DNA of 62,734 bases, filler included, from Collodictyon triciliatum (taxonomy: Eukaryota): assembly GCA_043381765.1 (NCBI GenBank). It is 5 parts of 4 records of this genome, joined end to end, with 100 filler letters (N's around TTAATTAATTAA, not from the genome) between each part and the next. Parts side by side here need not be neighbours in the genome. Positions count along the whole stretch, not along the records: positions 1 to 14,312 come from JBHJMP010001853.1; 4 more parts are not named here. One strand, written 5' to 3'. A program made the position numbers and the translations under genes. A model generated the notes under the pieces. It saw only the letters and a list, made by a program, of their open reading frames with translations. It was not told where the DNA came from and did no database searches. Position 1 is the stretch's first letter. Every line of letters starts with the position of its first letter. Below, one piece after another: positions 1 to 25,329 of the stretch.

Positions 1-79
1 GTTTACAAAAAAGAAGTAGTGGATGAACAGAAAACCGAACTGTAAAAACGTAAAAGAGTACAAAGTCACTTTTATTCCC
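1..79 (+). repeat. Direct repeat copy 1 (may extend left of the window)
   Basis: Matches 4702-4781 with 3 substitutions and a 1-nt indel in a T run. Confidence 0.95.
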
Positions 80-117
80 ACCATGCCCCCTATATTTTAT
101 TTCTCTATTAAATTATT

Positions 118-1224
118 ATGGTTATTAAAAAGACTGATCAAGAATATTTAGAACAAGCCTATCAGTCTACCGCACATACAAACTCAGTCGCCGGTCTTTG
201 GGCACAAGTCAAACAATACGGAATTACTAAAGCCAGTGTCTCTAATTTCCTCAAACAACAGCCAGACTATCAAACACTCCAAGCCAAGAAAAAAGAAAAA
301 AGAACTGCAACTATGGTAAGATATAAACCCGGTTACATTCAGATGGACACCATTGATATCACACCGATGAAAAGTAAAGTAGCTAAACACTTGCTGACTC
401 TTGTTGATATCTTTACCAGAAAGCTCTGGGCGTTTCCACTCAAAAATAAAAGTGCCGATCTTGTCAGTAAAAGACTTACTGAATTTCTTAATCAGTACAA
501 AGTAACAAACACCGTCCAGTCTGATAACGGAGTTGAGTTCAAAAAAGATGTCCCAGAACTTTTAAAAGAACGAGGCGTCAATGAAGTCAAGTCTGCTCCA
601 GCCAATCCGACGACGAACGCATTTGTTGAAAGAGCAAATGGTGTTTTGAAAAGAGCACTTTATGGATATCTCCAGAAAACTGGCAAAGACCCTATTCCAA
701 ATCTCCAAGACTTTGTGGATAGTATTAATTTAGTTAAAAATGAGACGACGCAAGTAGTCCCCGAGGTTGCCATACTGCCAGAGAATAAAGAAAAGATAAT
801 TGAAAATATTACAAAGTACGCAAATAAAAAAGGATCTGCATCCACAAAATTATTAAATGTGGGGGACAAAGTCAGAGTGTTGTTAGAAAAAACAAATATC
901 ACCGCGGCGAAAAAAAACGAACTAAAGCAGAGTAAAGGCTTCCTGCCAAGATACTCAAATGAAATATATACAATAGAAAGTAGAAACACACCCAATGATA
1001 AATTCTCTGCACCAACATATTATTTGAAAGATTATAAAACTGCAAACACAAAAAAGCAACGATTCCTTCAAAGTGACTTATTAAAAATAGATGATACAAT
1101 CACTAAAGGACAGACACATAAACCAGCCGTTGATTTGTTAAAGCATACCAAGGTAGATAGACGCAGCAAAGAAAATAAACAAGACCCAACGTATAGACAA
1201 ACAAGAAGTAGATCAAAAAAATAA
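118..1224 (+). CDS. Polinton/Mavirus-type retroviral-like (rve, DDE) integrase
   Basis: QMDTID, LTLVDIFTRKLWAFPLKNKS, VQSDNGVEF and NAFVERANGVLK give the DDE core; C-terminal VGDKVRV...KGFLPRYSNEIYTI is typical of Polinton integrases; uninterrupted ORF. Confidence 0.93.
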   Translation: MVIKKTDQEYLEQAYQSTAHTNSVAGLWAQVKQYGITKASVSNFLKQQPDYQTLQAKKKEKRTATMVRYKPGYIQMDTIDITPMKSKVAKHLLTLVDIFTRKLWAFPLKNKSADLVSKRLTEFLNQYKVTNTVQSDNGVEFKKDVPELLKERGVNEVKSAPANPTTNAFVERANGVLKRALYGYLQKTGKDPIPNLQDFVDSINLVKNETTQVVPEVAILPENKEKIIENITKYANKKGSASTKLLNVGDKVRVLLEKTNITAAKKNELKQSKGFLPRYSNEIYTIESRNTPNDKFSAPTYYLKDYKTANTKKQRFLQSDLLKIDDTITKGQTHKPAVDLLKHTKVDRRSKENKQDPTYRQTRSRSKK

Positions 1225-1226
1225 TT

Positions 1227-1841
1227 TTATTTCTTAGGGTTAGGGGGTCGTCCTCGTCCACGCTTGATTACAACTTTTGGCTCTGGCTCCGGCTCCGGCT
1301 GCAAAGCCGGTTCTGGCTCTGGCTCTTCTACTTTTCTCTTCTTGTATTTTCTTTTTGATTCAGAAACTATCTTTTCAATTGTCTGCTTCTCTAGCTTCTT
1401 GGCCTCTGCAATATCATCCTTTAGCTTTTCGCTTTCTGCTTCTTGCTTGATCTTTCTTGTTCGTTGCCTACCTTTTACTGCCTTGTCCATACCCTTGGCA
1501 AGAGTTTCTTTTAACGTCTGTTTCGACTTGGCAAAGAAATAAACATCCTCGGGGTTAACCGACCATTTCTTTTTTTTATCCAGCGTAGAAAATCCATAGA
1601 GATCCACTTTTATTTTTTTTATCTCCTTTAAAGTTTCATCCGGCAAATAACTGATATACCCCCCCTTTACTAATTTCGGTTCAGTTTCTTTTTTCTCCAA
1701 ACTATCATTTTGGTATTTTCTAGGTTTTGGAATATAGGTAACAAAGTCATTCACTTTTATATCCTTGGGTTCAATGAACTCCCAATTGTCACTAAAGTCT
1801 TTTGGCAGTTTCGCTTTTATTTCCTCGGGAATCATTACCAT
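1227..1841 (-). CDS. Hypothetical viral protein with N-terminal globular domain, charged coil, EP repeats and C-terminal AT-hook
   Basis: First ATG at 1841 (the ORF track begins at a TTG); ends in KRGRGRPP AT-hook; converges on the integrase with a 2-nt spacer. Confidence 0.75.
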   Translation of the reverse strand: MVMIPEEIKAKLPKDFSDNWEFIEPKDIKVNDFVTYIPKPRKYQNDSLEKKETEPKLVKGGYISYLPDETLKEIKKIKVDLYGFSTLDKKKKWSVNPEDVYFFAKSKQTLKETLAKGMDKAVKGRQRTRKIKQEAESEKLKDDIAEAKKLEKQTIEKIVSESKRKYKKRKVEEPEPEPALQPEPEPEPKVVIKRGRGRPPNPKK

Positions 1842-1871
1842 TATCAATTATTTTATTTTTAGAATTAAACG

Positions 1872-1881
1872 CAACTTAAAG
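1872..1881 (+). promoter_or_regulatory. CAACTTAAAG motif upstream of ORF 1920
   Basis: Identical 10-mer occurs in sense orientation upstream of the TVpol-helicase gene (4519-4528, minus). Confidence 0.4.
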
Positions 1882-1919
1882 TTATCTCACTAAGATAATT
1901 TACGAACAACTCTTTAAAT

Positions 1920-2138
1920 ATGGATTCTCAAACACTCGATGCGAACATAGCCGCTCTAAAATACTTTGGTGTCCCCGCTAAGGACGTCTTTGAAGCTCTC
2001 ATGCGTTCCGCTCGCCGCAAAGAAAGTTTACAAAAACATTATATCAAAAGAAAAACAGAAGAGAAAGAAAAATACAAATGGAGAAACCCCGAGGTCACTG
2101 TGTACATTGATAAACAAGGAAATAAGTCTTATAAATAA
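1920..2138 (+). CDS. Small basic hypothetical viral protein (72 aa)
   Basis: ATG ORF filling the space between neighbours; stop codon lies within a hairpin shared with the convergent TVpol gene. Confidence 0.65.
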   Translation: MDSQTLDANIAALKYFGVPAKDVFEALMRSARRKESLQKHYIKRKTEEKEKYKWRNPEVTVYIDKQGNKSYK

Positions 2139-2163
2139 ATTTGTGCAATTGCACTAATTTATT
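2134..2163. terminator. Palindromic hairpin at convergent 3' ends
   Basis: AATAAATTTGTGCAATTGCACTAATTTATT is a 30-nt palindrome with one mismatched pair and covers both stop codons. Confidence 0.65.
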
Positions 2164-4489
2164 CAATTCGTTGTCTCTTCTGCTGACTCTCGGCAAACTC
2201 GGGAATTGTTGCGCAGACTCCTGGGTTTCTAAGCTTACGGCGAATCTCCATGTAGTTCAAGACATATTTGCTGTGGTGGTTAGTCGTGACATTATATTCT
2301 TTTTTGAATTCGATCCATTCTTTGTTATGACCAAATTTGTTTTTGTCCATTAGCTCATACTTTGGAAAGTATTGGGTCATAAAGAATCTATACAGATCAT
2401 ATAGTTCTGTGTGATACAAATCAAACTTGACACTGTCAAACCAACGATAACGATTAGTATCAATTCCAACAATCTTATTATATTTGTTCATCTCACTTTC
2501 GTTCCAATCCATAAACACATATTCAATAAAACTCTGAATCACTGATTTGTGTGACTCAGCCATTTCTTCCAGCATCTCACACTTTGGCATTTTGTTGAAA
2601 TCAAAACTTGGATTATACATGTTGAGTAATAACAACAAAAACTTTCTATTAAAATCTTCATCATCAGTTTCTGCTGCAAGTTGTTCCTCTTCTGATTTTT
2701 GTAGACGTGATTCAGAACATTCAATCACACAGAATCGGCGCATGTTGTCACGTTCAAATTTGACACCGATGCTTTTGTTTGTGCATAAAAATGTATTGAC
2801 ATAACATTTCTTTTTTTTGGGATCATTGCACATTTTTCTAAGATTGGTATATTGTCGGTCCACTAGGTCCTTAATTTCTCCCTGGAGTCCCTTGACGTTT
2901 TGAAATTCTGCCTCCTCGCAAATAAGTGCAAGGCATCCCTCAAGCATTGCATTGCGATTTCCAAACACCTCTTCAAAATTGCACGGGGCGCGCCAATACT
3001 GTGTTCCTAGAAGTTTGTCTCCAAAATGCAATTTCAAGAAACTTGATTTGCCTGTGCCTCCTTTCTTATTCGTCATAATAATCATCTTCTTAATTTTCTT
3101 GTGCGGGTTATAGATGATGTGCGCCAAGTACTGCAAAAAGTAAATATATGCATCTTGCTTTCCGTTGCACAACAGATTGAATATTTGATGGTAATGCTTT
3201 GATTTTATAAAATCCTCTGCCATTGTTGTGTGATAATGCGTAACATGGATATGTTTAAGATATTCATGATAATTTTCAAAGTCAGTAACTTTTTCGGCAA
3301 ACATTTTTTCAAAGGCAAACCCCGTGAACAAATTATAGTAGGAATAATTCCTAGTATCCATGTAAGGCACAAAATCAAATTTTTCATATTTTCTTTTGCC
3401 GTGCTTGCACAAAAGATTTGTGAATTTAGTGGCATTGGTTAAATTAAATTCTTCAAAATAACATTCTTTGCTAACATGCTCAAATTCTTGTTTATCTACA
3501 CCAATGGTTCTATAAAACTTGTCTCCAACTCTAAAATGAGTTTTTTCAAATTCTTCAATGCCCAGACTCTTATAGAGTACCTCCTGTTTGTCAATCTTTT
3601 CAAAGTCAAACGGGCTCTCCATTGATTTTTCTTTTATGACAACCTGATAACCGGTTTCTTGAAAAATAATTTCCTGACAATAATCTAATATTTCTTGGGG
3701 AAATTCTTTTTCGTTTTCAATTTTACGGACGGCACCCCCGTCGTACATGCCCAGGTCCAGCTGTCTATTTTTTTGTCTGAGTGCATTCTCAAATACAATT
3801 AGACATTCTCTTTCAACACTTTGGAAATAGTAAGACATTGCTCGTCCATACTTGTTATCGTCTTTTTCAAGCATTGGCTTTTTCCCAACTTTTAATTTAT
3901 GCCAATGTGGGACATTGACCCAAACATGTGCCGTGATAATATCGACTTCGTTTTTTAATTTTTTAAAGAATTGGTCTGTGTATGCAATAGGTGGTATTCC
4001 TCCATACAATAAAGTGCAGACATAACTTTTAAAAGTTTCTCGATCAATGTTTAACTTTTCCATGTATTCTTTAAAAATATTATCACGGTTAAAACAATAC
4101 TCTTGTAATGCCTCAACAACAATCCCGTTTTTATTAGCATACTGTAATATGAACGAGGGGTGAGCGTTCACAAAATCCAGGTCGTGGTAATACTTGGATA
4201 GCATTGCGTTACGAACGTCTCGCCAAGTATTTGCCAAACAATCAGTTGGACATACCCTTCCTACACCCCATACCCCCTTATGATTTTGTAATGCACTATA
4301 TTCTTTACCCATAGAATGAATACTAGTATAAGTATACAAATATACTTTAGGGTCAAGAGTGCATTTTCGTGACATTCTAATAAGCTTTTGCTTTATATCT
4401 TTCGGAACAATAGCATCTGAACACTTACACAGAAAGTCAGCGATTTCTTTGTCAAAAATGTAGGTATAGCTCTGGGATATCTGGCTCAT
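2159..4489 (-). CDS. TVpol (PolA-related primase/polymerase) fused to SF3/D5-like helicase
   Basis: Motif A YYHDLDFVNAHP, motif B RETFKSYVCTLLYGG, SYYFQSVE, motif C GMYDG; helicase Walker A GGTGKS, Walker B LICEE, motif C FLCTN, MRRFCVI. Confidence 0.88.
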   Translation of the reverse strand: MSQISQSYTYIFDKEIADFLCKCSDAIVPKDIKQKLIRMSRKCTLDPKVYLYTYTSIHSMGKEYSALQNHKGVWGVGRVCPTDCLANTWRDVRNAMLSKYYHDLDFVNAHPSFILQYANKNGIVVEALQEYCFNRDNIFKEYMEKLNIDRETFKSYVCTLLYGGIPPIAYTDQFFKKLKNEVDIITAHVWVNVPHWHKLKVGKKPMLEKDDNKYGRAMSYYFQSVERECLIVFENALRQKNRQLDLGMYDGGAVRKIENEKEFPQEILDYCQEIIFQETGYQVVIKEKSMESPFDFEKIDKQEVLYKSLGIEEFEKTHFRVGDKFYRTIGVDKQEFEHVSKECYFEEFNLTNATKFTNLLCKHGKRKYEKFDFVPYMDTRNYSYYNLFTGFAFEKMFAEKVTDFENYHEYLKHIHVTHYHTTMAEDFIKSKHYHQIFNLLCNGKQDAYIYFLQYLAHIIYNPHKKIKKMIIMTNKKGGTGKSSFLKLHFGDKLLGTQYWRAPCNFEEVFGNRNAMLEGCLALICEEAEFQNVKGLQGEIKDLVDRQYTNLRKMCNDPKKKKCYVNTFLCTNKSIGVKFERDNMRRFCVIECSESRLQKSEEEQLAAETDDEDFNRKFLLLLLNMYNPSFDFNKMPKCEMLEEMAESHKSVIQSFIEYVFMDWNESEMNKYNKIVGIDTNRYRWFDSVKFDLYHTELYDLYRFFMTQYFPKYELMDKNKFGHNKEWIEFKKEYNVTTNHHSKYVLNYMEIRRKLRNPGVCATIPEFAESQQKRQRIE

Positions 4490-4518
4490 CTTGTTATTGT
4501 AATATCGTATTGATATCT

Positions 4519-4528
4519 CTTTAAGTTG
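4519..4528 (-). promoter_or_regulatory. CAACTTAAAG motif upstream of TVpol-helicase
   Basis: Same 10-mer as 1872-1881, 29 nt before the ATG. Confidence 0.4.
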
Positions 4529-4572
4529 GAAATTTAATAATCTGGGGATATATATTTTTTGTCAATTTATGG

Positions 4573-4690
4573 AATGCCCCCAACTTATACCCCCGTAGTA
4601 TCATTTATATTATTCTTTATCTTATTATATCTTTATATAACAATCTTTATATAAAAATATATAAAGGGGTATTGGGGGCATTGGGGTATT
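4573..4690. promoter_or_regulatory. Origin-like structure: C/G-run inverted repeat around an AT-rich core with an internal hairpin
   Basis: AATGCCCCCAA(CTTA)TACCCC at 4573-4593 versus GGGGTATTGGGGGCATT at 4666-4682; CTTTATATA-AAAA-TATATAAAG hairpin at 4645-4666; ATCTTTATATAA occurs twice. Confidence 0.5.
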
Positions 4691-4701
4691 ACTTTTTAAG
4701 A

Positions 4702-4781
4702 GTTTACAAAAAAGACGTGGTGGATGAACAGAAAACGGAACTGTAAAAACGTAAAAGAGTACAAAGTCACTTTTTATTCCC
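4702..4781 (+). repeat. Direct repeat copy 2
   Basis: Near-identical to 1-79. Confidence 0.95.
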
Positions 4782-4783
4782 CC

Positions 4784-4984
4784 CTATACCCCTCCACCCC
4801 CTTCATCAAAAGTTACACGAAATGGTTCGTCAGCAATAATTTGTAAAATAAAATCATTTTTTATAAAATCTTTTCTGTTTTTATTTGTTTTCTTTTTGGC
4901 TTTTTCTAAAGAATATATAAACAGCTGAAGTTCCTCCCAATTAACGAATTCGTGTGTAATATCATTTATAATTAGTTTGAACAT
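4784..4984 (-). CDS. Small hypothetical viral protein (66 aa)
   Basis: ATG ORF directly downstream of the ATPase and preceded by the conserved 17-nt motif. Confidence 0.6.
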   Translation of the reverse strand: MFKLIINDITHEFVNWEELQLFIYSLEKAKKKTNKNRKDFIKNDFILQIIADEPFRVTFDEGGGGV

Positions 4985-5009
4985 ACAATTCTAAACAAAT
5001 TATTTTTTG

Positions 5010-5744
5010 TCAATAGACTATTTCCGAGTTAAAATTCTTATAGACTTTGGGTTTTCTGGGTTGCAACAGATCGATGAACATAAAACAATAGTTTTCGTTC
5101 GTGCAATATTCTAAAAGTTCGTCAAACTTACTTTGCGATAAATTCGTTAGTTCGTTTAGTGCCTCTCGTTCTCGCTGGTTGCTGGTGTAAAAAGAAATTA
5201 AGTGAGTTGCGTTTTGTCTGAGTTTTGGATTCATCAATCTGATAGCCTGACTCACTATTATGATACTGAGATTATAATGTCGGTGTTTAAGAAAGTTCTT
5301 TAACATATTTTTAGTCGGTCTTTCGAAAACTGTGCTCAAGTCGTCAAGCACCAGGAGGTACTGGTCTTTCTTCCAATCGTCGGGTTTTGTTATATCCTCG
5401 AGTATGTTATCAAATATTTCATCAGTAAAATTATCAAAGCTTCTTTTTTTTGAAAAGCGAACACCCTCATAGCTGACATCGGAAATTTTACCATCCACCA
5501 TATTAGAAGAACAAAAATAACACTTTTCATAATACTTATAATATAATTCTTTTTGACGAAGCAGATTAGCGATTAAAATAGATTTCCCTGAGCCCGTCTT
5601 TGCAGAAATTAACATCAAGTACGGTCTACTCTCGGCCGGGTCAGGAAGCGCCTCCAACAGTATTTTTCTTTTACTTTTTTTTATGGCAGTCAAGGGTTGG
5701 ACCTTGAAATTATTGACTATCTTTTCTTCCATACAGTTATTCAT
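5010..5744 (-). CDS. A32-like (FtsK/HerA) DNA-packaging ATPase; true start possibly 5732
   Basis: Walker A ISAKTGSGKS, Walker B YLLVLDDL, KHRHYNLSIIIVSQ and PKLRQNATH motifs typical of Polinton/virophage/NCLDV packaging ATPases. Confidence 0.93.
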   Translation of the reverse strand: MNNCMEEKIVNNFKVQPLTAIKKSKRKILLEALPDPAESRPYLMLISAKTGSGKSILIANLLRQKELYYKYYEKCYFCSSNMVDGKISDVSYEGVRFSKKRSFDNFTDEIFDNILEDITKPDDWKKDQYLLVLDDLSTVFERPTKNMLKNFLKHRHYNLSIIIVSQAIRLMNPKLRQNATHLISFYTSNQREREALNELTNLSQSKFDELLEYCTNENYCFMFIDLLQPRKPKVYKNFNSEIVY

Positions 5745-5753
5745 AAAATAAAA

Positions 5754-6107
5754 TCAACGGAACAATACATTGGGGTCAAACTCGTATTCTCTTGTTTGTT
5801 CTTTGTCTACAGTTTCCTGTTTGGCTTTTTTATTCATTCGTTTGTTCATTTTATAAGCCTCTTCTTGTGTCAAGTATTGCACTATCTTATCGACTTTTGA
5901 ATTGATTGCGCTGTAATCGTGTGAAGGCTGCTTCGCTTTCTCGTATGTTTTTATTGTTTGAGCAATCTCTTTATTCTTTTTCTTTGCCTCTGTGGCTTTG
6001 ACTTGGATTTTTGCGAGATGAGCCTTTTGCTTTTCAGAAGCAACTCGTTTTGTTTTTCTTTTGTTTTTTTCTATGGTTTCCATATCGTTATCTGAATCAG
6101 AGTTCAT
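5754..6107 (-). CDS. Basic coiled-coil hypothetical viral protein (117 aa)
   Basis: ATG ORF co-directional with the ATPase; KRVASEKQKAHLAK basic helix; preceded by the 17-nt motif. Confidence 0.7.
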   Translation of the reverse strand: MNSDSDNDMETIEKNKRKTKRVASEKQKAHLAKIQVKATEAKKKNKEIAQTIKTYEKAKQPSHDYSAINSKVDKIVQYLTQEEAYKMNKRMNKKAKQETVDKEQTREYEFDPNVLFR

Positions 6108-6141
6108 AACCTTTCCAAGAAAATAATTTCTGAGTTAGATT
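6108..6141. promoter_or_regulatory. Bidirectional promoter made of two back-to-back 17-nt motifs
   Basis: The 34-nt intergenic region is exactly ATTTTCTTGGAAAGGTT (minus) plus AATTTCTGAGTTAGATT (plus), each abutting an ATG. Confidence 0.6.
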
Positions 6142-6906
6142 ATGGATAGAGCATATTACATTCACGTGGATTCAGCCAACAGATCAACCGGAAGTATATC
6201 AGACTTTAACTTTGCCACGACGCAGAACCGGTATGTTGCAAGCTCAGGTAAAGTTGCACTTGAAAGTATTCAAATCCCTTATGCCGTGCACAATGTTACT
6301 AGTGCCAATAATACATTAGTCTTTATTTGTAGTGTTAACAACAGCCCCGTTTCATACAATGTGTCACTTGAAACTGGATTACAAACCATCAATGAAATAG
6401 TTACTGACATCAGAACAAAGATAAACGCGGCAACCGCAGGCCAGGGAGCCGCAGCAGAAGTTACTGTTTCATTTTTAAGTGGCAAGCAAAAGATAGCAAT
6501 CAAAGCAGCAGGTCCAAATGTTTCATATGAACTGTTTGTGAATTCTAGTACATGTAGAGAGCTAATAGGACTAACAGCAAATCTTACGTTCAACACTAGT
6601 TTCGTTGAGCTGCAGAATATGGTCAATGTCCGTCCGTTTGATTATGTGTATCTAGTCAGCCCGAATATTCAGAGTTCAAGTTTTGCATCAAACATAGGGG
6701 GCAATGGCATCGTCGCAAAGATTCCGCTGAGTGTTGGTTCACGGTACTCGAATTATTATGAGGTGAATGACAATATCCTAGAGAATCTGATGGACTGCTC
6801 GTATATTCCGTTCAGCTGGAATTTCCGGCTGGTTGATAGACTGGGCAATACAATCAACCAACTTCAGGACTACAGCTTCACGCTGCGGATTATTCCAGAC
6901 TTTTAA
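6142..6906 (+). CDS. Probable minor capsid protein (penton, single jelly-roll)
   Basis: IHVDSANR..G...DF, ALESIQIPY..HNV...NNTLVF, DYVYLVS, IVAKIP and FRLVDRLGN...YSFTLRI follow the PLV/NCLDV penton pattern; beta-rich, 254 aa, next to ATPase and fibre. Confidence 0.72.
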   Translation: MDRAYYIHVDSANRSTGSISDFNFATTQNRYVASSGKVALESIQIPYAVHNVTSANNTLVFICSVNNSPVSYNVSLETGLQTINEIVTDIRTKINAATAGQGAAAEVTVSFLSGKQKIAIKAAGPNVSYELFVNSSTCRELIGLTANLTFNTSFVELQNMVNVRPFDYVYLVSPNIQSSSFASNIGGNGIVAKIPLSVGSRYSNYYEVNDNILENLMDCSYIPFSWNFRLVDRLGNTINQLQDYSFTLRIIPDF

Positions 6907-6921
6907 TTTCTTGCTTAATGT
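6905..6921 (+). promoter_or_regulatory. 17-nt motif before fibre gene
   Basis: AATTTCTTGCTTAATGT-ATG; 15/17 identical to 14099-14115. Confidence 0.6.
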
Positions 6922-9309
6922 ATGGGTTTTTTCATAACAGAAGAAAAGGAACTACCGGAATTTTCCAGTCAAGACGCAAACAAAGTATTAAAAGTCGATC
7001 CGAGCGGGGTTTATCTACAGTGGCTACAGGAGACAACGACACCGGCTGAGCTTCCAAGTCAAACGGGGAATGCTGGACGTTTGCTGACAACAAATGGCTC
7101 AACTCCGTCGTGGACTAATGGTCCTATAGGATTGGGTACAACTGGGGCTGCTACTCCGATGCTTTGGTTTGGAAGCAATAACAACGGCTTTGCGGAAGGA
7201 TGGAGTGCCGGTGGCGGGGCAACGGGAGTAAGCGAGATTACAAATGGCGCAGTATGTTGTACATTTCAAAATGGGGCTATTAGACTGCCTGGTGGTAATC
7301 CAATAAGAAGCAATGGCAACGCGGCATCTCGGTTTCAGTGTACCAGTGATGTACCAAATATGCAAAATTCTGTGACTACCGGATCTGTTGGAACCGATCG
7401 TATTGTTAATGTGAGTTCAGCCAATTGGGCATCAACTTCATTAGACTTGGTAGCCAGCAATTTAAATGATACACCAGGCTCACTTAATGCTAGCCAGATG
7501 GGTATTGAGATAAAACAAAATCAAATCGTGTTTAATGGAGCTGGGATAACGGCATCAGGCACTACTTTGCCAGCTCGTGTCACACGAATGACTATTGATA
7601 ACACAGAAATAAGTACGAGTTTACCATTGGCTGTAGGCAACTATATGTCTGCGTCAAGTATTATTATAGCCACGACTGGCTTTGTGATGAATCAACCGGG
7701 AACAGAAGCCGCTCAAGCTTACACATTTCGTAATTTTGACACTAGTGATTCCAATCGAAATAATAGTAATAGACAAGGAATATATAGTCCTGCAATTGAA
7801 GCAATAGCTATATCAACAAACTCTGTAAGCAATATATCAGGAAGTACCGCTGGAAGACCCAATGCAGTAGAGCGCTTTAGGGTCGATGACAATTATGTGA
7901 CTGTGACGAATTCATTAAATCTTTCACGAGTAGGGTCAGCAGCTGAACCTAACCTTTTGTTTGGAGACAATACAACAATCCCAGCTACAAGTCGAACTGG
8001 TATCTGGGGCTCGGATGACAATATATTTTTTAGCACGGGAGGAGTTCAGAGATTCAGTATTGGCAATGCAAATGCTGCGATCTCAGGAAATTTAATTATG
8101 GCTACTCCAGCGATGGGTGTCACAGGAGCAAACGGCGGCATTGGTGTCGTGGCAGGTATAGGTGCAACCGCCGGATTGTATTCAACAACAAGTACAAATT
8201 CAGGCATTCGATTTCAAGACACTAATGCCAATGTACGTATTTTAACTAATGGAATGAATGTAATAGATTGCACGCAGGTGTCTGGTGCAGGTATAGTAAG
8301 TATGGAAGAAGCAATTACAATGAAAAAAGCTGTACGTTTTCCTTTTCAGTCTCGAAATCATACTAATATTTCTATAGGTACAACAAGTCCTATGATGATA
8401 CGAGCGTTGATATCTGACAATGTACCAAATACTTTTGATTTACCTTCATTAGGATTGAAATTAACTGGCCAAACCCATATTATTATTCCTTATAAAGATG
8501 CAGCCAGTACAGGCACGTTAGCTATGTGGACTGGTGGCGGAACGGGACACGCAATTCACGTTATGCATAATTCAACAAAAACTGTTGTCACAGGTAGCAG
8601 CACATATCCATTAATAGAGGGTGGGGTATACACTTGTGTGTGGCATTGGTTATCTTCAACTGCAGGCCTACTTCAAGGCATCTGGTATGCATGGATTGAT
8701 GGGCTGGCAGCGACATTAACTGTGCCCGACCCGTTTGTAATTGGTACAAATTTAGATTTTGTTACAGGAGGAAATGCAGCTGCTAGAATACAAGGGATAA
8801 ACTCAGGAGCAAACTCTGAAGTAGGTATGGTTATTAATGGGAGCATGAGAACTAAATTTACAGTAAATGATACCGAAGTTCAAAACTCGCTACGATTGTT
8901 TAAGGCGCGGATTACTGATTGGATAATTCACGACAGCGGCACGCACAAAGTGAGTCGAAATTCTCCTAGTAAAATCATATTAACAAAACAGGGTTCAGGA
9001 AGCTCAAATGCAGTAATTGTTTTTCCGGCAAGTACCGATGCCCCGGATGGACTAGAAATTCAAGTCATGGTTTGGATGTTGTCGGGTAGAAGTGGCTCAG
9101 GGGTTCAGATTGTGCGGTTTGATTCAGCCAGTCCAGCAAATAACGCCTTTGTGCTTGGTTCCAGTGGCACAGGTATCACACTTGGAGGAACAAGTTACAC
9201 CGTAACAGAAGGAACCAATTTTACAGCTACCAATTTCCGTACCACTATAGGACGCTGGATGGTTGATTCAACTCGATTTAACTGTACTCCTGCTTTATCA
9301 TCCGCGTAA
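6922..9309 (+). CDS. Phage tail-fibre-like virion fibre/spike protein (795 aa)
   Basis: G/S/T/N-rich beta protein; LPSQTGNAGRLLTTNGSTPSW and GSAAEPNLLF...TGIW...IFFSTGGVQRFSI resemble phage tail-fibre repeats; directly follows the penton. Confidence 0.7.
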   Translation: MGFFITEEKELPEFSSQDANKVLKVDPSGVYLQWLQETTTPAELPSQTGNAGRLLTTNGSTPSWTNGPIGLGTTGAATPMLWFGSNNNGFAEGWSAGGGATGVSEITNGAVCCTFQNGAIRLPGGNPIRSNGNAASRFQCTSDVPNMQNSVTTGSVGTDRIVNVSSANWASTSLDLVASNLNDTPGSLNASQMGIEIKQNQIVFNGAGITASGTTLPARVTRMTIDNTEISTSLPLAVGNYMSASSIIIATTGFVMNQPGTEAAQAYTFRNFDTSDSNRNNSNRQGIYSPAIEAIAISTNSVSNISGSTAGRPNAVERFRVDDNYVTVTNSLNLSRVGSAAEPNLLFGDNTTIPATSRTGIWGSDDNIFFSTGGVQRFSIGNANAAISGNLIMATPAMGVTGANGGIGVVAGIGATAGLYSTTSTNSGIRFQDTNANVRILTNGMNVIDCTQVSGAGIVSMEEAITMKKAVRFPFQSRNHTNISIGTTSPMMIRALISDNVPNTFDLPSLGLKLTGQTHIIIPYKDAASTGTLAMWTGGGTGHAIHVMHNSTKTVVTGSSTYPLIEGGVYTCVWHWLSSTAGLLQGIWYAWIDGLAATLTVPDPFVIGTNLDFVTGGNAAARIQGINSGANSEVGMVINGSMRTKFTVNDTEVQNSLRLFKARITDWIIHDSGTHKVSRNSPSKIILTKQGSGSSNAVIVFPASTDAPDGLEIQVMVWMLSGRSGSGVQIVRFDSASPANNAFVLGSSGTGITLGGTSYTVTEGTNFTATNFRTTIGRWMVDSTRFNCTPALSSA

Positions 9310-9339
9310 ACAATTTTTATTAATAGTAAGAATTGTTTA
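9307..9339. terminator. Hairpin at convergent 3' ends
   Basis: TAAACAATTTTTATT-AAT-AGTAAGAATTGTTTA: 15-bp stem (2 G:U on the plus strand) running from one stop codon to the other. Confidence 0.7.
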
Positions 9340-12300
9340 GTAGATTGCCTGCGAAAGATTCTTGATAGGTGTGCCAAAGACACGCTCTGTGACAGGCCCG
9401 TAAGATTTGCGGCCAAATGCACCGGAGCTGACAAAGAACTGGGCGTCTCTGGCCGAGCCGAATGCGCGCTTCTGGCCCCCGCCGTGGACGACGTAATTGA
9501 GCCCCTCTCGTCGGATGGTGTAATTTGATTGGCCCGGAATAATGATGGTACCGAGGTCAGAGTTGACGACCCTGCCCAGGTTTTGCTGGGGGAGAAAAGC
9601 GACGTTTCTCAGTTTCTGGTCAGTCGTGTCTCCGTATTTCGGCTTGTACTTGAGAGGCCATGACCCTTCTTTACGGTATATTTTTAATGCGCTTTGTAGG
9701 CCTGGAATGTTGCCTTCAAAAAATAATTCTAGTATGTCCATAAGCGCACTAGTGTCAGGAGTTAAATCGACGTATTCAATATTAAATTCTCTCATGGCTG
9801 CTTCAAAAGTTTGCTTATCTACTATACCATAATCATTAGCTCTTGCTGGATTACCCTGTTCGATATACCTCGATACTTTTCTAGCAAAGCGTGATTGATT
9901 GCCGTATTCACGGTTGTCCGACACTTGAGGACGCATTGGGTTAAATATTGGCTGTTGACTACCGCGTCCATTGCCGCCAGGAGGGCCGCCACCAGGAGGG
10001 CCGCCTGCTCCAGGACCAAACATTGGAACTGCCCCTATAATAGGACTAGCAGTAGCTGCTTGCATTGATTGTCTTCTATTTGCTGCCATATTATTACCAC
10101 CGAAAATATTTCCTCGCACTGCATCACCTGCCGCCTGAAAAATGCCAGCGCCAGCGCCAGCTGCAGCTTGTAAAAAGCCAGCACCAGCATTAAAAACAGC
10201 CCCAGCCATTGCTCGTGCTGCAGCCAAATTTCCAGGAACAACTGGAGACAAAGGTGGCAGACCAGGGGGTGTTGGTTGACGTCGACGCACAGCGGGACTT
10301 TGAAACGGTACCACAGCTGCGGGGCGAGGAGGGCTAGTAGCTAATTGTTGTATTCTAGGGTTTGCTTGCAAGTTTTGAGGTGCATTCGGAGGCAATGCTG
10401 CAAAATCATCAACAAATTGCCAAGGGCCAGGCACCATAAAAGGACTAGGAGGGGGTCCAGGGGTAGCTTGTCTCACAGCAATTTGTCGTTGTGCACTTTG
10501 GGGAGTATCCTCGCGAGGAGCTCTTCCTACTGGTGTCCCCAGCTCATCTGTGGGAACTGCAGGAAACGCAGCGTTATAATAAAAAGTAGCTGTATCAGCA
10601 AGTTGTTCTCCTCGGGCTTTTAAATCGGCTGCAAATCTTCGTAGATCTTCTATTGTTTGAGCTTGTTCAATAACAAGCGGATTTTCAAGATTCAATAATG
10701 CATTTAAATCATTAACCTGTTCTTTAAGATCCTCTATTTCGACATCTTTGGTGTCAGGTGCGTCTTGCAACAAAATTAAATTTTGTACTTGAGTTTCTAA
10801 TTCCCGAATTCTATTCAGTTGTATTTCTGCATTTAATGCTTGTCTCTTAGCTTTATAACTATCCTGAACTCTTCTTAAATTATCTCTTCGCCTGTTTAAT
10901 TCTTCTGTGTTAAAACTAGAACTATGATTAGGTCTTTTTGGTGTTCTTGGTGTCTTTGGTGTCTTTGTTACTGAAGATGCAACTGAAATGTTTGTTGTAT
11001 CAAGTCCGACTCTATAGTTGCCTGGTATAATCTTGTTGAGAGCTGCACGTTGTTCCTCATGTCGGGCACGTTCATTTTGCATTTGCACACCCATGTCCTG
11101 TAATCTCTTTTGATAAATTTCTTTGTCTTGCATCAAGCCAGTTGCCAGTTGAGACGCAGTGTTAACAGTGTCTTGAAGTTCTTGTATATATTGGTTTTGA
11201 TCACTCATTGCATCATTCAATGTATCGATTTGTTCATATGCGTTATCTAAGTTTTTTTGTAAAAGCTCTATGTGTTCTGCTAATTTTTTAATTAATGCAT
11301 CTGCTTCTATTTCTATATTTGTAGGTGTTATATCTTTATCTAGAACCAAATCTTTAGATTTTTCTTTAGTTTTACTATTTTCTATTTTATCTGTTTCATT
11401 TTGTTTTTTTATTTCATTCATTTTAGCACTCATATCAGCTAATTTTTGTGTTATGTTGGTAATACTGACACTCTTGCTAGTATCGGGAACAGCAGTCCTG
11501 TTTGGTGTTTCTTTTGGACTAAATAATTCTCTTGCAGATTGTTTAATTGGTGATGGACTCTTAAAATCAGTTTTACTCGTTGTACCAAATCCAGAACGCT
11601 GAGTAAATGTAGGCGTGCTTTGTGCTATAATTGACCCTGCACTCATATTTGATGCATCAGGATCAAAATCTATCGTAGATTCGTTGAGCATAGACTCTGT
11701 CTGTGCCTGTGTAAATGATCCTGATTGATTCAGCTGTTGTAGGCTTTGATTTAAAAAAGACTGTGCAGGATCTAATATCATACTCTGGGTTGTTTGGTCA
11801 GGGTTAAATGTAGTGTTTGGTGATGCCGCTCCCAGGACTTGAGGACTAAATAATATGTTAGATGAACTCCTTGCCCTAGCAGCATAATTGGATTGATTAA
11901 AATATTGTGAGCGCTCAAATGTAGTAAACAAATTCCGCATGGACTGTGATAAAGCCGCACGAGAAATATGCCCACTTGTTTGTATCATGCTAACAATTGA
12001 CCGTGCAAGTAAATTACTAAAATTCATATTATCAAATTGGTTTAACTTGGCATCCAGTGAATCGTTTGCAATTGCTTCTAAATCTTTTTCTTCACGTTCT
12101 ATTAATTCCTTATAACCTTCATTTAGTTCCACAACTGGGATTAGTGCTAAATCTTCTGCCCTAACAACCTCTGCTCTAGTTTTCATTACTGCTTGACAAT
12201 TTTGTTGAAAATCTCTTACGTTGCGAATGTATTCTTGTAGCTCTGTTGGCAATGACTGATAAAAATTAAAAACACCTTGGTCTGTTGGTTCAGTCGCGTT

Positions 12301-14082
12301 TCGCACCAAAAAATCTCTGATAAATACTTGTAGATCTCTGGCTAATTTATTACCAAATTCAATTAACTCTCCCTGGCTGAGAGCATTTGTAATTTGTCGA
12401 AATAGTTCTTCCTCGTTTATTACTGCTGCTGGTGTTGATAACGCAATTATTGCATCATTAACTTTTTCTTCCCCCTGCTTATCTTGGGCAATTGTTTCGT
12501 CTGTATTTTGTATGTATCTTCTGTGATATTCCTGCAAAATTTCTTTATTTAGTCTAAGTCTTTGCACTTCTTGTCCTTTTCTTAACTTTTCAGCCATTTC
12601 CTCTTCAGCCTGTTTTTTATTTTTAAGAGCTGCCTCTCTTTTGATTCGTTTTTCTTCTTCAATCTTTTTTAATTGTATCTCTCGTGCCGCGTTTCGTGCT
12701 AAAACTCTTTTTTCACGTTCATTTGCCTCTAGTGCTTGTTTATATTCTATTTCAAGTTCAGCAATAAACCTATAATACGCAACATTCCAACATATTAATT
12801 CCAAAATTTCTTCTTCATCATATTCTAATTCTTCGCCAGCAGCAAAGCTATAAAGATATAATCGCACGTCTTCGTCAAATTCATTGTCCATGTAATTCAT
12901 AAACTCAAATTCCTTTTCGTCACCAAAATCTTTTGGAACGTTTTCTTTATAACTAAACCCTCTGTGTTTATACCACTCTTTAAAGCAAAGATTCATACCT
13001 GTGTAAACTTTGGATGCTACTCTCTGACCACGCACATTTTTTTTCTGAAGGTATCCTATTGTCAAATACTCTTTTTTATTTCCAATTTCTGCTCTAACGT
13101 CATCTGATAATCTTTGCCACCTTTCCTTTCCTTTTTGACTTTCCATTGCCTCGTCAAATTGTTCAAAATACGCATTTAGCTGATCCATTGTTGTATCCAA
13201 TTGTCCCTTATCTTCTTCTTCCTGTACTGTCTCAGCATCCTCTACATCTTTCTCTGCTACAAGGTCTTCCAATTCTTGATCTATTAGTGCAGCTTCTTTT
13301 TTTAGTTCTTCATTAATTTGCGATTGTTTTATTCTATTTGCATTTTGCATATCTATTTTACTCATGCCATCTGGAGGGTCCATACTATGTAACACTATAT
13401 ATTCCAACACCACCGTACTCAGACTAGTATCATTTGGATTTTCCTCTAGTAAACGATTTAGCTCCTTTTCTCTATTCAAACCTTCTTTTTGATTATAAAT
13501 TCTACGTCTATCTGGATCAGGAGCTCTATACACCTCATCTTCTATAGCTCTTTCCATTTGTTCATTAGTCATACCAACTGGAGGGTCTGATTTTAATGCC
13601 AATATATATTTCCAACGTGGTATTTCTGGATTGTCTGCTTCTGCCTCATTTAATTGATTTCTATAAAATTCAAGTTCATCATCAGTGTATTTTTTAACTT
13701 CAGGATCATATGGAAATGTGATGTAATATGGTTCTAATAAATCAGCCCTTCCCTGATTTTTTTTAGGGTCCAAAGTATCTATTTCTCTTGGCAGTTTTGA
13801 TTTTACTATATTGTCATACAATTTCTCTAATTGTATAAAGTCATCCATGTCTAATTTTGTTTCTTCACGTCTAGCTCTATAATATAAAACATGAAAATCA
13901 TTTAATGCTTGATTAAAATTTTTACTTGGTTTTTGCAGATAATATAAAATATAATTAAATTTATACCCAATTAATGAATCATTATCAAATAAACTTTCAA
14001 TATTGTTTTCTTTAAAGTGTTGTGTATACCAAGGTATTTTATTTTTTTTCAACTGTTCTATGGTATAATATTTGGAGCTCAT
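9337..14082 (-). CDS. Large coiled-coil/low-complexity viral protein (~1581 aa)
   Basis: Uninterrupted ORF; first ATG (MSSKYY) at 14082, and the upstream extension in the ORF track overlaps the divergent gene; E/K/Q-rich heptads plus S/T/P- and A/G/P-rich tracts. Confidence 0.8.
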   Translation of the reverse strand: MSSKYYTIEQLKKNKIPWYTQHFKENNIESLFDNDSLIGYKFNYILYYLQKPSKNFNQALNDFHVLYYRARREETKLDMDDFIQLEKLYDNIVKSKLPREIDTLDPKKNQGRADLLEPYYITFPYDPEVKKYTDDELEFYRNQLNEAEADNPEIPRWKYILALKSDPPVGMTNEQMERAIEDEVYRAPDPDRRRIYNQKEGLNREKELNRLLEENPNDTSLSTVVLEYIVLHSMDPPDGMSKIDMQNANRIKQSQINEELKKEAALIDQELEDLVAEKDVEDAETVQEEEDKGQLDTTMDQLNAYFEQFDEAMESQKGKERWQRLSDDVRAEIGNKKEYLTIGYLQKKNVRGQRVASKVYTGMNLCFKEWYKHRGFSYKENVPKDFGDEKEFEFMNYMDNEFDEDVRLYLYSFAAGEELEYDEEEILELICWNVAYYRFIAELEIEYKQALEANEREKRVLARNAAREIQLKKIEEEKRIKREAALKNKKQAEEEMAEKLRKGQEVQRLRLNKEILQEYHRRYIQNTDETIAQDKQGEEKVNDAIIALSTPAAVINEEELFRQITNALSQGELIEFGNKLARDLQVFIRDFLVRNATEPTDQGVFNFYQSLPTELQEYIRNVRDFQQNCQAVMKTRAEVVRAEDLALIPVVELNEGYKELIEREEKDLEAIANDSLDAKLNQFDNMNFSNLLARSIVSMIQTSGHISRAALSQSMRNLFTTFERSQYFNQSNYAARARSSSNILFSPQVLGAASPNTTFNPDQTTQSMILDPAQSFLNQSLQQLNQSGSFTQAQTESMLNESTIDFDPDASNMSAGSIIAQSTPTFTQRSGFGTTSKTDFKSPSPIKQSARELFSPKETPNRTAVPDTSKSVSITNITQKLADMSAKMNEIKKQNETDKIENSKTKEKSKDLVLDKDITPTNIEIEADALIKKLAEHIELLQKNLDNAYEQIDTLNDAMSDQNQYIQELQDTVNTASQLATGLMQDKEIYQKRLQDMGVQMQNERARHEEQRAALNKIIPGNYRVGLDTTNISVASSVTKTPKTPRTPKRPNHSSSFNTEELNRRRDNLRRVQDSYKAKRQALNAEIQLNRIRELETQVQNLILLQDAPDTKDVEIEDLKEQVNDLNALLNLENPLVIEQAQTIEDLRRFAADLKARGEQLADTATFYYNAAFPAVPTDELGTPVGRAPREDTPQSAQRQIAVRQATPGPPPSPFMVPGPWQFVDDFAALPPNAPQNLQANPRIQQLATSPPRPAAVVPFQSPAVRRRQPTPPGLPPLSPVVPGNLAAARAMAGAVFNAGAGFLQAAAGAGAGIFQAAGDAVRGNIFGGNNMAANRRQSMQAATASPIIGAVPMFGPGAGGPPGGGPPGGNGRGSQQPIFNPMRPQVSDNREYGNQSRFARKVSRYIEQGNPARANDYGIVDKQTFEAAMREFNIEYVDLTPDTSALMDILELFFEGNIPGLQSALKIYRKEGSWPLKYKPKYGDTTDQKLRNVAFLPQQNLGRVVNSDLGTIIIPGQSNYTIRREGLNYVVHGGGQKRAFGSARDAQFFVSSGAFGRKSYGPVTERVFGTPIKNLSQAIY

Positions 14083-14098
14083 AATATAACTTATATAA

Positions 14099-14115
14099 AA
14101 TTTCTTGGCTAATGT
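14099..14115 (+). promoter_or_regulatory. 17-nt motif before ORF 14116
   Basis: AATTTCTTGGCTAATGT-ATG. Confidence 0.6.
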
Positions 14116-14312
14116 ATGATTGTTGATGTTAGAAAAGCAAGCAGAGGTGTTGGTCGCTTTCTTACCCGGCACACGGACAACGCACTAAACAAACTGCAAC
14201 GATTAGACAAAGCCTACTCGGATTTGAATCGGGCAAGCGGTGGGCTGGTCGAGTTGGGGCTGCAGGGAACAGGAATCAAACCTGCATTCCAGACAATTGC
14301 CAACCCGCTGGT
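14116..14312 (+). CDS. Hypothetical viral protein, truncated by gap
   Basis: ATG preceded by the conserved motif; open to the contig end; basic amphipathic N-terminus. Confidence 0.6.
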
Positions 14313-14412
14313 NNNNNNNNNNNNNNNNNNNNNNNNNNNNNNNNNNNNNNNNNNNNTTAATTAATTAANNNNNNNNNNNNNNNNNNNNNNNNNNNNNNNN
14401 NNNNNNNNNNNN
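14313..14412. other. Artificial 100-bp contig linker (N44-TTAATTAATTAA-N44)
   Basis: Same six-frame-stop linker recurs at 25330-25429, 39670-39769 and 54009-54108. Confidence 0.95.
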
Positions 14413-14414
14413 GG

Positions 14415-14711
14415 ACGAAGCTTGAACGAATTCCAGGATTTGAGCATTATACTCATTACCGTATTTCGACCCATGGCAAAATGTGTGAATCATATACCTG
14501 GAGTAATTTGAAACAAATTAAAAAACGTGCAACTGGTTACAAAGTTGTTACTCTTTATAGTCGGGGCAAAAGTAAAACTTACAACGTGCATGAATTGGTC
14601 GCGTTGGCGTTTGTTGACAACCCAGGCAATTACAAACAAGTTATACACTGCAATGGAATTAAAACAGATAACAACCGTGAAAACCTCCGTTGGGCACCTG
14701 CAACTGACTAG
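14415..14711 (+). CDS. NUMOD4-HNH endonuclease-like protein, 5' end in gap
   Basis: Frame open from the contig start: RIPGFEHY..YRISTHGK (NUMOD4), GYKVVTL, VHELVALAFVDNP, VIHCNGIKTDNNRENLRW (HNH_3). Confidence 0.82.
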   Translation, partial: TKLERIPGFEHYTHYRISTHGKMCESYTWSNLKQIKKRATGYKVVTLYSRGKSKTYNVHELVALAFVDNPGNYKQVIHCNGIKTDNNRENLRWAPATD

Positions 14712-14754
14712 AATAAACTAAAAATCCCATAAATCAATTGAGTATGAAATAAAC

Positions 14755-14796
14755 TGATATTTATTTATTCTAGGTATATAGAATAAATAAATATCA
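14755..14796. terminator. Perfect 18-bp stem hairpin downstream of the HNH gene
   Basis: TGATATTTATTTATTCTA-GGTATA-TAGAATAAATAAATATCA. Confidence 0.7.
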
Positions 14797-17219: not shown

Positions 17220-17446
17220 CTTCCAGGATATTTCTTTCTTTTCTTTTTTTAATTAGGTCTGCGTCCGGTTTGAGATGAATAGGGTAAATCTTCGGATTGG
17301 AATACATATTTTTGAGAAAATGCTATTAGTTGAATGCATTTACACACGTGAGAGAATGATATGGTTAATAATTATTGTTCTTGCTGAAATATTACCATCA
17401 ACTAGATGCTAGAAAAATAAAGTGGGTACATTTTAATGCCAACTAA

Positions 17447-17492
17447 CAATTACAATTACAATTACAATTACAATTACAATTACAATTACAAT

Positions 17493-17586
<94 letters not shown>
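17447..17586. repeat. (CAATTA)n-(AAT)n compound microsatellite
   Basis: Direct reading. Confidence 0.97.

Positions 17587-17588
<2 letters not shown>

Positions 17589-18261: not shown

Positions 18262-18500
<239 letters not shown>

Positions 18501-19263: not shown

Positions 19264-25329
<6,066 letters not shown>

What the first reader, a model, noticed from the sequence alone, without database searches (positions are those of the whole stretch)
1..4781. 79-bp direct repeats bracket the integrase + replicase module
Seen: 1-79 and 4702-4781 are ~95% identical and enclose integrase, two small ORFs, TVpol-helicase and the origin-like region, while the structural genes lie outside. Known: Polintons have terminal inverted, not direct, repeats. 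Inference: the replication/integration cassette may be swappable or excisable as a ~4.7-kb circle, or the repeat may be a duplicated cis-element or a tandem junction.
Basis: partly seen in the sequence, partly recalled or inferred. Interest (0 to 1): 0.7.

Follow-up and report, generated by a model that had tools for sequence, protein, structure and literature searches.

The report
Direct repeat flanking virus replication module
A real repeat of at least 79 bases sits on both sides of the integrase and replication genes of a small Polinton-like virus, but one copy is cut off by the end of the assembled piece, and a similar layout is already described in a related virus, so it is a modest find.

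Summary
The repeat is real. Positions 1-79 and 4702-4781 match in 76 of 80 aligned columns (E about 1e-30), and it is the only strong repeat in its contig. Two things change the reading.

First, the window is five contigs joined by N44-TTAATTAATTAA-N44 spacers. Position 1 is therefore the edge of a 14,312-base, all-viral contig. Copy 1 is cut there, so 79 bases is a minimum length.

Second, the element is a Polinton-like virus (PLV). It has an rve integrase, an SF3 helicase fusion and an A32 ATPase. No pPolB, no TIR and no host DNA are on the contig.

Copy 2 lies in the contig's only long non-coding stretch, beside an AT-rich palindrome set with G5/C5 motifs (z -3.76).

Best reading (0.4): the repeat is the visible tail of a duplicated non-coding control segment that delimits a replication/integration "end module". 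Gezel-14T has a comparable direct repeat of more than 300 bp (PMC11296320).

Excision as a circle or swapping at the repeat is not shown. No relative close enough to test this could be fetched.

The scan had noted other PLV fragments in this genome, but not this repeat.

The parts
1..79 (.). Repeat copy 1 (R1). It is cut on its left by the contig or window edge. A weaker match continues to about 89.
83..94 (+). C5 motif plus TATA-like run just after R1 (ATGCCCCC, CCCTATA), 24-35 nt ahead of the integrase ATG.
118..1224 (+). rve (DDE) integrase, 368 aa. Its N-terminus aligns with homologues. It lacks the tail of about 30-40 aa that most of them carry.
1227..1847 (-). ORF of 206 aa, tail to tail with the integrase, no family.
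1920..2138 (+). ORF of 72 aa, no family.
2159..4489 (-). 776-aa replication protein. The C-terminal half is a DUF5906/SF3 (D5/P4-type) helicase. The N-terminal half is unassigned, so 'TVpol' is not verified.
4573..4689 (.). Origin-like palindrome. C5 arm at 4573-4594, 71-nt AT-rich core at 4595-4665 holding a tandem 14-mer, and G5 arms at 4666-4689.
   Evidence: (z -3.76, 0 of 200 shuffles)
4702..4781 (.). Repeat copy 2 (R2), lying between the G5 arm 4674-4689 and the C5 arm 4786-4801.
4784..4984 (-). Candidate 66-aa ORF between the ATPase gene and R2. Its stop codon abuts the repeat. No relatives found.
5010..5744 (-). A32-type DNA-packaging ATPase.
   Evidence: PF04665, E 7e-9
5754..6107 (-). 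ORF of 117 aa, no family.
6142..6906 (+). 254-aa ORF, virus-like. Penton (minor capsid) is a lead only.
   Evidence: nothing
6922..9309 (+). 795-aa fibre-like protein with mosaic relatives (83% over all of the query, down to 75-84% over 8-15% of it).
9337..14082 (-). Large ORF of about 1581 aa from the first ATG, no family. It is complete: two stops lie upstream within the contig.
14116..14312 (+). First 65 codons of a further gene, cut by the right end of the contig.
14313..14412 (.). Artificial contig spacer (N44, TTAATTAATTAA, N44). The same N-run layout recurs at 25330, 39670 and 54009.

Best explanation
Contig 1-14312 is part of a Polinton-like virus genome. Its integration and replication genes form one compact block: rve integrase, two small ORFs and a polymerase/primase-like-SF3 helicase fusion. 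The 79-base repeat is the visible right-hand part of a longer non-coding unit (G5 arm, repeat, C5 arm) that stands on both sides of this block. The inner copy adjoins the origin-like AT-rich palindrome. The outer copy runs off the contig, probably into terminal or otherwise repeated sequence where the assembly broke. I read the unit as a duplicated cis-acting control segment, associated with the origin or the terminal region, that delimits a replication/integration 'end module'. Two copies in the same orientation also supply the homology by which such a module can be lost, copied or exchanged between related viruses. Shown here: the repeat, its placement, the motif cluster and the palindrome. 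Inferred: that the repeat extends to the left, that it has a cis-acting role, and that it takes part in module turnover.
For: The repeat is far beyond chance (E 2.5e-30) and is the only strong repeat in the contig.

Its left limit coincides exactly with the edge of the data, in a window built from whole contigs. It is therefore almost certainly truncated.

Genes are packed with gaps of 2-72 nt, except for 1-117 and the 520-nt stretch 4490-5009. The G5/C5 motifs cluster there and just after R1: ATGCCCCC at 83 and 4574, its complement at 4674; 2 of 3 GGGGTAT and 2 of 4 ATACCCC sites lie in that stretch, the rest in coding sequence.

R2 lies between inverted G5/C5 arms (I12). R1 is followed by the matching C5 arm, so a G5 arm is expected just left of position 1.

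4565-4700 folds well beyond shuffles (z -3.76, 0 of 200) and holds a tandem 14-mer.

Precedent: PMC11296320 (sections 8 and 9 part 1 read) proposes replicative end modules. It reports a direct repeat of more than 300 bp inside the Gezel-14T TIR and again immediately downstream of its end module.

Uneven relatedness of the genes fits modular turnover: helicase fusion 46%, integrase 62%, fibre-like gene 83% to the best outside relative.

Contigs 98-100% identical to both the module and the structural part occur in run X1: 8 of 8 listed pieces, except one at about 93%. The two parts therefore travel together in nature.
Against: No relative close enough to show whether the repeat is conserved could be fetched. 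Seven viral-contig scans, two metagenome scans and two genome-contig scans gave nothing above 27% identity, apart from one spurious 18-residue match at 78%.

The sequence left of position 1 was not obtained, so the TIR link and the longer unit are inference.

The repeat itself has no significant fold (z 0.47, 0.89, 0.11, -0.04; 0.41, -0.35).

In relatives from runs X2 and X3, likeness stops at 4661/4665 and starts at 122 and 4989. The repeat-bearing spacers are therefore not kept at 85% or more in those viruses. Only 24 of 306 loose ends were shown.

All 3 mismatches fall on third codon positions of the one frame that is open at the contig start. This hints at a coding past instead.

No homing endonuclease lies in the block, unlike in Gezel-14T.
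Confidence: 0.4

Rival explanations
1. The repeat is an ordinary expression signal used twice. It is the last 14 codons and stop of a plus-strand gene, plus the spacer and promoter of the next gene, copied to a second place. It has no part in replication or in module mobility.
For: Frame 1 is open from the contig start to a stop at 43-45, and the same stop sits at 4744-4746. The 3 mismatches (15, 18, 36) are all third codon positions, giving one E/D change and two silent changes; the chance is 1 in 27 for that frame. R1 ends 38 nt before the integrase ATG, with a C5-TATA run between. R2 is followed at a similar distance by a 5-codon ATG frame. Distant relatives also carry short repeated spacers of 34-64 nt at 70-88%. 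The right end of the contig opens a plus-strand gene that could close at R1 if the genome map is circular.
Against: In copy 2 the frame has no ATG. Its 73 open codons are reached by 205 of 2000 shuffles. It has no homologue in 1.84 billion representatives beyond one low-complexity hit at E 1.3e-4. The repeat lacks the strong hairpins seen at the two other convergent gene ends, which score z -4.25 and -4.79 against 0.41 and -0.35. No RNA run was on offer, so this could not be checked.
Confidence: 0.25
2. The repeat is an assembly artefact. Contig A joins two co-occurring virus variants with different gene orders at a shared segment, so that no single genome carries both copies.
For: The assembly holds many Polinton-like virus fragments (earlier notes, unchecked). 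Copy 1 lies at a contig end, where assemblers stop at repeats. Environmental relatives are mosaic: 306 loose ends on 14.3 kb, and one X2 contig joins 13964 to 1215.
Against: The copies differ at 3 bases and 1 indel, so this is not a k-mer overlap, and no other contig end in the window overlaps it. The contig reads through copy 2 on both sides into intact genes. Run X1 holds 98-100% identical pieces of both parts at similar low depth, though no listed piece bridges either copy.
Confidence: 0.1
3. The palindrome at 4573-4689 is the fused pair of short terminal inverted repeats of a linear genome, assembled across a head-to-tail, circular or tandem junction. R2 would then lie near one physical end, and R1 would lie 4.6 kb inside the other end.
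For: There is an imperfect palindrome with 11-nt perfect arms and a further pairing core. Replication and integration genes at a genome end are the rule proposed in PMC11296320.
Against: The palindrome is short and imperfect, and the repeat itself is not part of it. No terminal or junction reads were seen. PLV TIRs are usually hundreds of bases (PMC12220804, passages).
Confidence: 0.1
4. The 4.7-kb block is an active mobile cassette. Recombination between the two copies releases it as a circle carrying its own integrase, replicase and origin, and it can enter other capsid backbones.
For: Direct repeats around a block that is self-sufficient for integration and replication, with an origin-like region inside it. 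Mobility of end modules is proposed in PMC11296320. In run X4 an abundant virus (depth about 3,400-4,200) matches 5737-7170 and 9083-9560, for example at 4 differences in 305 nt, but has no such match on 1-5736.
Against: No 4701-to-1 joint is among the 5 listed joints, nor in table 5c. That is weak evidence, because the contigs are short and of low depth. The left limit of the X4 block is near 6033, not at the repeat. No second copy of the cassette exists in the window. 79 bases at 95% identity is a poor substrate. An rve integrase does not act on such repeats.
Confidence: 0.08

Closest known systems
Gezel-14T end module with flanking direct repeat (PMC11296320, sections 8-9 read)
   Same: Integration and primase/helicase-type replication genes sit side by side as one block. 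A direct repeat stands on both sides of it. The block was read by its authors as a possibly mobile module.
   Different: There the repeat is more than 300 bp and one copy lies inside the TIR. The integrase is a tyrosine recombinase, and a GIY-YIG endonuclease is part of the block. Here at least 79 bp are seen, no TIR is available, the integrase is rve-type and no endonuclease was found. I did not see the Gezel-14T sequence itself.
Mavirus / EMALE replication-integration module (PMC8547959 and PMC11296320, passages)
   Same: An rve integrase is grouped with the replication gene(s) as a unit that is exchanged between lineages independently of the capsid module.
   Different: Mavirus uses pPolB and has TIRs. 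No bracketing direct repeat is described in the passages I read.
Polinton-like viruses with a TVpol or primase-S3H replicase (PMC12220804, passages; PMC10120064, passages)
   Same: Size class, A32 ATPase, rve integrase, SF3 helicase fusion, tight intronless genes, mosaic evolution.
   Different: TIRs and a major capsid gene, which define complete members, are not on this contig. Integration into a host is not shown.
LTR retroelements and att-flanked integrated elements
   Same: Direct repeats lie around a block that holds an integrase.
   Different: No reverse transcriptase. The repeats do not bound the whole element. The integrase is DDE-type, not a tyrosine or serine recombinase that would make att repeats.

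Membership tests
Polinton/Maverick | [quoted passage not shown] | tested here: not met
   No polymerase B family among Pfam hits of 12 ORFs. The replication gene is an SF3 helicase fusion.
Polinton/Maverick | rve integrase | tested here: met
   PF00665, E 2e-10, above the gathering score.
Polinton/Maverick | Terminal inverted repeats | tested here: inconclusive
   No inverted copy of 1-150 in the window, and one weak 31-nt inverted pair in the contig. Both contig ends are open.
Polinton-like virus | Morphogenetic module: major capsid protein, minor capsid protein, packaging ATPase | tested here: inconclusive
   ATPase met (PF04665, E 7e-9). Penton is only a language-model lead. No major capsid gene was recognised; it may lie beyond the right end.
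Polinton-like virus | 14-40 kb dsDNA element with a non-pPolB replicase (TVpol or primase fused to S3H) | tested here: inconclusive
   At least 14.3 kb. The helicase half is met. The N-terminal half has no match in Pfam or the PDB, and the fold had pLDDT 43.9.
Replicative end module bracketed by a direct repeat (Gezel-14T type) | Integration and replication genes adjacent | tested here: met
   118-1224 and 2159-4489, with two small ORFs between.
Replicative end module bracketed by a direct repeat (Gezel-14T type) | Direct repeat on both sides of the block | tested here: met
Replicative end module bracketed by a direct repeat (Gezel-14T type) | Block lies at a genome end, with the outer repeat copy inside the TIR | not testable with these tools
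   Sequence left of position 1 is not held. The one read-laying run did not show it.
Replicative end module bracketed by a direct repeat (Gezel-14T type) | Associated homing endonuclease (GIY-YIG) | tested here: not met
   No such domain in the ORFs of 1-4781.
att-type repeats of site-specific recombination | Tyrosine or serine recombinase acting on the repeats | tested here: not met
   The only integrase is rve/DDE.

The most novel reading that the evidence does not exclude
The 4.7-kb block (rve integrase, polymerase/primase-like-SF3 helicase, two small ORFs, origin-like palindrome) is a self-contained replicon cassette. It moves between capsid backbones of Polinton-like viruses by recombination at the flanking repeat, possibly through a circular intermediate. 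It would thus be a mobile element that parasitises or re-equips small viruses.
Probability: 0.1. Interest if true: 0.65.

Novelty: new member of a known kind. Interest (0 to 1): 0.3.

Why it matters
[quoted passage not shown] A second case of a direct repeat bracketing an integrase-plus-replicase block, this time with an rve integrase and in a lineage with few sequenced relatives, would strengthen the 'end module' idea. It would also point to homologous recombination at origin- or terminal-region sequence as the route. As it stands it is one instance, cut by a contig end, without comparators.

Tried and rejected
Fetching the left flank or close relatives:
- No whole genome is held.
- The 26-base core of the repeat has 0 matches in viral contigs and in metagenome contigs.
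- Protein and profile scans with the helicase fusion, integrase, penton-like ORF, fibre-like ORF and the right-end fragment gave only 22-27% relatives (L001-L004).
- One further hit, L005, was spurious.
- One profile was too loose to use.

Public runs:
- No RNA holder was listed.
- Laid contigs are short. No listed piece bridges either copy, and no 4701-to-1 joint is listed. Which of the 9 records that run over an end do so on the left was not shown.

The repeat as an RNA or a terminator: folds are no better than shuffles. There are 0 Rfam matches and 0 tRNAs.

The repeat as the end of a small membrane-protein gene at 4525-4746: no ATG, no homologue, and a frame length that is not unusual. A spliced version does not keep the frame (own reading).

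N-terminal half of the replicase: Pfam, PDB sequence search and AlphaFold gave nothing usable, the last at pLDDT 43.9, so no fold search was run. From memory, an R-x3-K...YGG run and a YDG run among the invariant columns resemble family A polymerase motifs. This is a recalled lead, not a test.

Earlier notes of this scan: no look-alike of the repeat, the penton-like ORF, the ATPase region or the right-end gene, and no note on such a repeat.
Full report
OBSERVATION

The two stretches are there. BLAST of 1-150 against the whole window finds 4702-4774 at 95.9% identity (73 nt, 3 mismatches, E 2.5e-30) and no inverted copy anywhere. A global alignment of 1-79 with 4702-4781 gives 76 identical of 80 columns, the one gap being an extra T in copy 2. 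Gapped BLAST carries a weaker match to 1-89 / 4702-4792, 92.3% of 91 columns. The mismatches are at 15, 18 and 36. Beyond about 82 the two flanks share only C-rich motifs. Within 1-14312 this is one of only two direct-repeat families, and the other is a 33-nt low-complexity pair at 76%.

The window is not one molecule. Four spacers of 44 N, TTAATTAATTAA and 44 N cut it into five pieces: 1-14312, 14413-25329, 25430-39669, 39770-54008 and 54109-62734. All N runs were listed, and two spacers were read. The lead came from earlier notes of this scan that spoke of several scaffolds in one window.

Position 1 is therefore the edge of a 14.3-kb contig. The likeness between the copies starts exactly at that edge, so copy 1 is almost certainly truncated and 79 bases is a lower bound.

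The contig shares nothing else with the other four pieces, and no contig ends overlap. It holds no recognisable host DNA, so integration into a chromosome is not shown. No whole genome is held for the window. Earlier notes call the organism a freshwater protist related to Diphylleia and record several Polinton-like virus fragments on other pieces (unchecked by me).

WHAT THE CONTIG IS

Genes are intronless and tightly packed, with gaps of 2-72 nt except for two stretches. They are:
- rve integrase, 118-1224 (PF00665, E 2e-10)
- a 206-aa ORF tail to tail with the integrase
- a 72-aa ORF
- a 776-aa protein on the minus strand, 2159-4489, with DUF5906 (E 1.3e-10)
- an A32-type packaging ATPase, 5010-5744 (E 7e-9)
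- a 117-aa ORF
- a 254-aa ORF
- a 795-aa ORF
- a large minus-strand ORF

Residues 359-656 of the 776-aa protein match P4/D5-type primase-helicases of 71 phage records at about 24%, so this is an SF3 helicase. Its N-terminal half matched nothing in Pfam or among PDB sequences, and a five-sequence AlphaFold model was unusable (pLDDT 43.9). The label 'TVpol' remains unverified.

The 254-aa ORF resembles viral clusters that include Sputnik V18/19-type penton families, but this is a language-model lead only.

The 795-aa ORF behaves like a fibre. It has 24 relatives with patchy coverage, from 83% identity over the whole query down to 75-84% over 8-15% of it.

The large ORF is complete: the first ATG is at 14082, and two stops lie upstream. 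A further plus-strand gene opens at 14116 and is cut by the contig's right end. No major capsid gene was recognised, so the genome continues beyond the contig. No polymerase B was found.

This is a Polinton-like virus (PLV), not a Polinton.

THE NEIGHBOURHOOD OF THE REPEAT

The only long non-coding stretch is 4490-5009. Its layout is:
- a C5 arm at 4573-4594
- a 71-nt AT-rich core with a tandem 14-mer
- G5 arms at 4666-4689
- 12 nt, then R2
- a C5 arm at 4786-4801

The outer arms contain an 11-nt perfect inverted pair, and a second inverted pair of arms encloses R2. As single-stranded DNA, 4565-4700 folds far better than shuffles (z -3.76, 0 of 200).

The 8-mer ATGCCCCC occurs only at 83, just after R1, and at 4574, and its complement occurs only at 4674. 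So R1 is followed by the same kind of arm that follows R2. By symmetry a G5 arm should lie just left of position 1. This is inference.

A candidate 66-aa minus-strand ORF at 4784-4984 ends exactly at R2's right edge. It has no relatives.

WHAT THE REPEAT IS NOT

It is not a structured RNA or a terminator hairpin. Four RNA folds and two DNA folds are no better than shuffles. By contrast, the two other convergent gene junctions carry strong hairpins: 2130-2170 at z -4.25 and 9300-9345 at z -4.79. There are no Rfam or tRNA matches on the contig.

It is not a k-mer overlap artefact, because the copies differ at four places.

One oddity remains. All three mismatches are third codon positions of the single frame that is open at the contig start, and that frame stops at 43-45 and at 4744-4746. 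This hints that the first 45 bases are, or were, the end of a gene. In copy 2, however, the frame has no ATG, its 73 open codons are matched by 205 of 2000 shuffles, and it has no homologue.

RELATIVES

The lineage is thinly sampled.
- The replicase has 4 homologues, the best at 46%.
- The integrase has 15, the best at 62%. Nine of them were aligned; the N-termini agree, so the ATG at 118 is sound.
- The fibre-like gene reaches 83%.

None of the contigs that hold these proteins could be fetched. Scans of viral, metagenome and prokaryote-genome collections gave nothing closer than 27%, apart from one spurious 18-residue match at 78%. The distant loci L001-L004 carry only short repeated spacers.

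PUBLIC RUNS

Twelve runs from 9 studies, mostly freshwater metagenomes, hold part of 1-5200, and the best holds 0.40 of its words. Logan contigs of four of these runs were laid on 1-14312.

Run X1 has pieces 98-100% identical in both the module and the structural part. For example, there are 0 differences in 465 nt at 3443-3907 and 0 in 278 nt at 13482-13759. One of the 8 listed pieces is at about 93%.

Run X4 has contigs of very high depth (about 3,400-4,200) on 5737-7170 and 9083-9560 only. Their left limit is near 6033, not at the repeat.

Relatives in X2 and X3 lose likeness at 4661/4665 and gain it at 122 and 4989. Their spacers, including where the repeat would be, are therefore different.

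No 4701-to-1 joint is among the 5 listed joints. One X2 contig joins 13964 to 1215. These are short, low-depth contigs, and only 24 of 306 loose ends were shown. Absence there proves little.

COMPARISON WITH WHAT IS KNOWN

PMC11296320 (passages, section 8 and section 9 part 1 read) proposes that PLV and virophage replication and integration genes form 'end modules' next to the terminal repeats, which would serve as origin and recombination substrate. [quoted passage not shown]

PMC12220804 (passages) gives PLV TIRs as hundreds of bases, TSDs as 5-6 bp, and replication genes as following a separate history from capsid genes. PMC8547959 (passages) describes the rve-integrase replication/integration module of Cafeteria virophages, and recombination that swaps modules. 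PMC10120064 (passages) describes typical endogenous PLV content.

My two literature searches turned up no description of this particular element. I did not search further.

VERDICT

The most likely reading (0.4) is that the repeat is the tail of a longer duplicated non-coding unit, tied to the origin-like or terminal region, that delimits a replication/integration end module as in Gezel-14T.

The rivals are:
- a plain reused gene-end and promoter segment (0.25)
- a chimeric assembly (0.1)
- fused genome termini (0.1)
- an actively excising cassette (0.08)

It is a new member of a known kind. It becomes interesting mainly if reads show a long terminal-type repeat, or circle and deletion junctions.

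Noticed in passing
window 14313-14412, 25330-25429, 39670-39769, 54009-54108: The window is five contigs joined by spacers of 44 N, TTAATTAATTAA and 44 N. Any feature that touches these places, or positions 1 and 62734, is at a contig edge.
   Followed up: yes
window 2130-2170 and 9300-9345: Both convergent gene junctions that have a spacer carry strong palindromic hairpins spanning the stop codons (z -4.25 and -4.79, 0 of 200 shuffles each). This looks like a hairpin-type 3'-end signal of the virus.
   Followed up: partly
window 5737-7170 and 9083-9560: In run X4 (a subsurface metagenome) contigs of depth about 3,400-4,200 match these structural-gene stretches almost exactly, while the rest of the contig has depth 1-10 there. 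An abundant virus shares only these blocks.
   Followed up: no
window 6922-9309: The 795-aa ORF is fibre-like and mosaic. Relatives share either the whole length (83%, 71%) or only pieces (75-84% over 8-15% of the query).
   Followed up: partly
window 13964 and 1215: One X2 contig (depth 7.4) joins 13964 to 1215 with 8 other letters between. This suggests a relative with a different gene order that lacks the integrase gene at that place. The sides may be short.
   Followed up: no
window 118-1224: The integrase lacks the C-terminal tail of about 30-40 aa present in most of the 9 aligned homologues (396-421 aa against 368 aa).
   Followed up: partly
window 14413-17219 (second contig): This contig opens inside an HNH_3 endonuclease ORF (E 1e-6) and carries an intronless GT92 glycosyltransferase (E 1.5e-23), followed by long microsatellites from about 17.4 kb. 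It could be another viral insertion or host genes.
   Followed up: no
window 4784-4984 (-): An unlisted 66-aa ORF lies between the ATPase gene and the repeat.
   Followed up: partly
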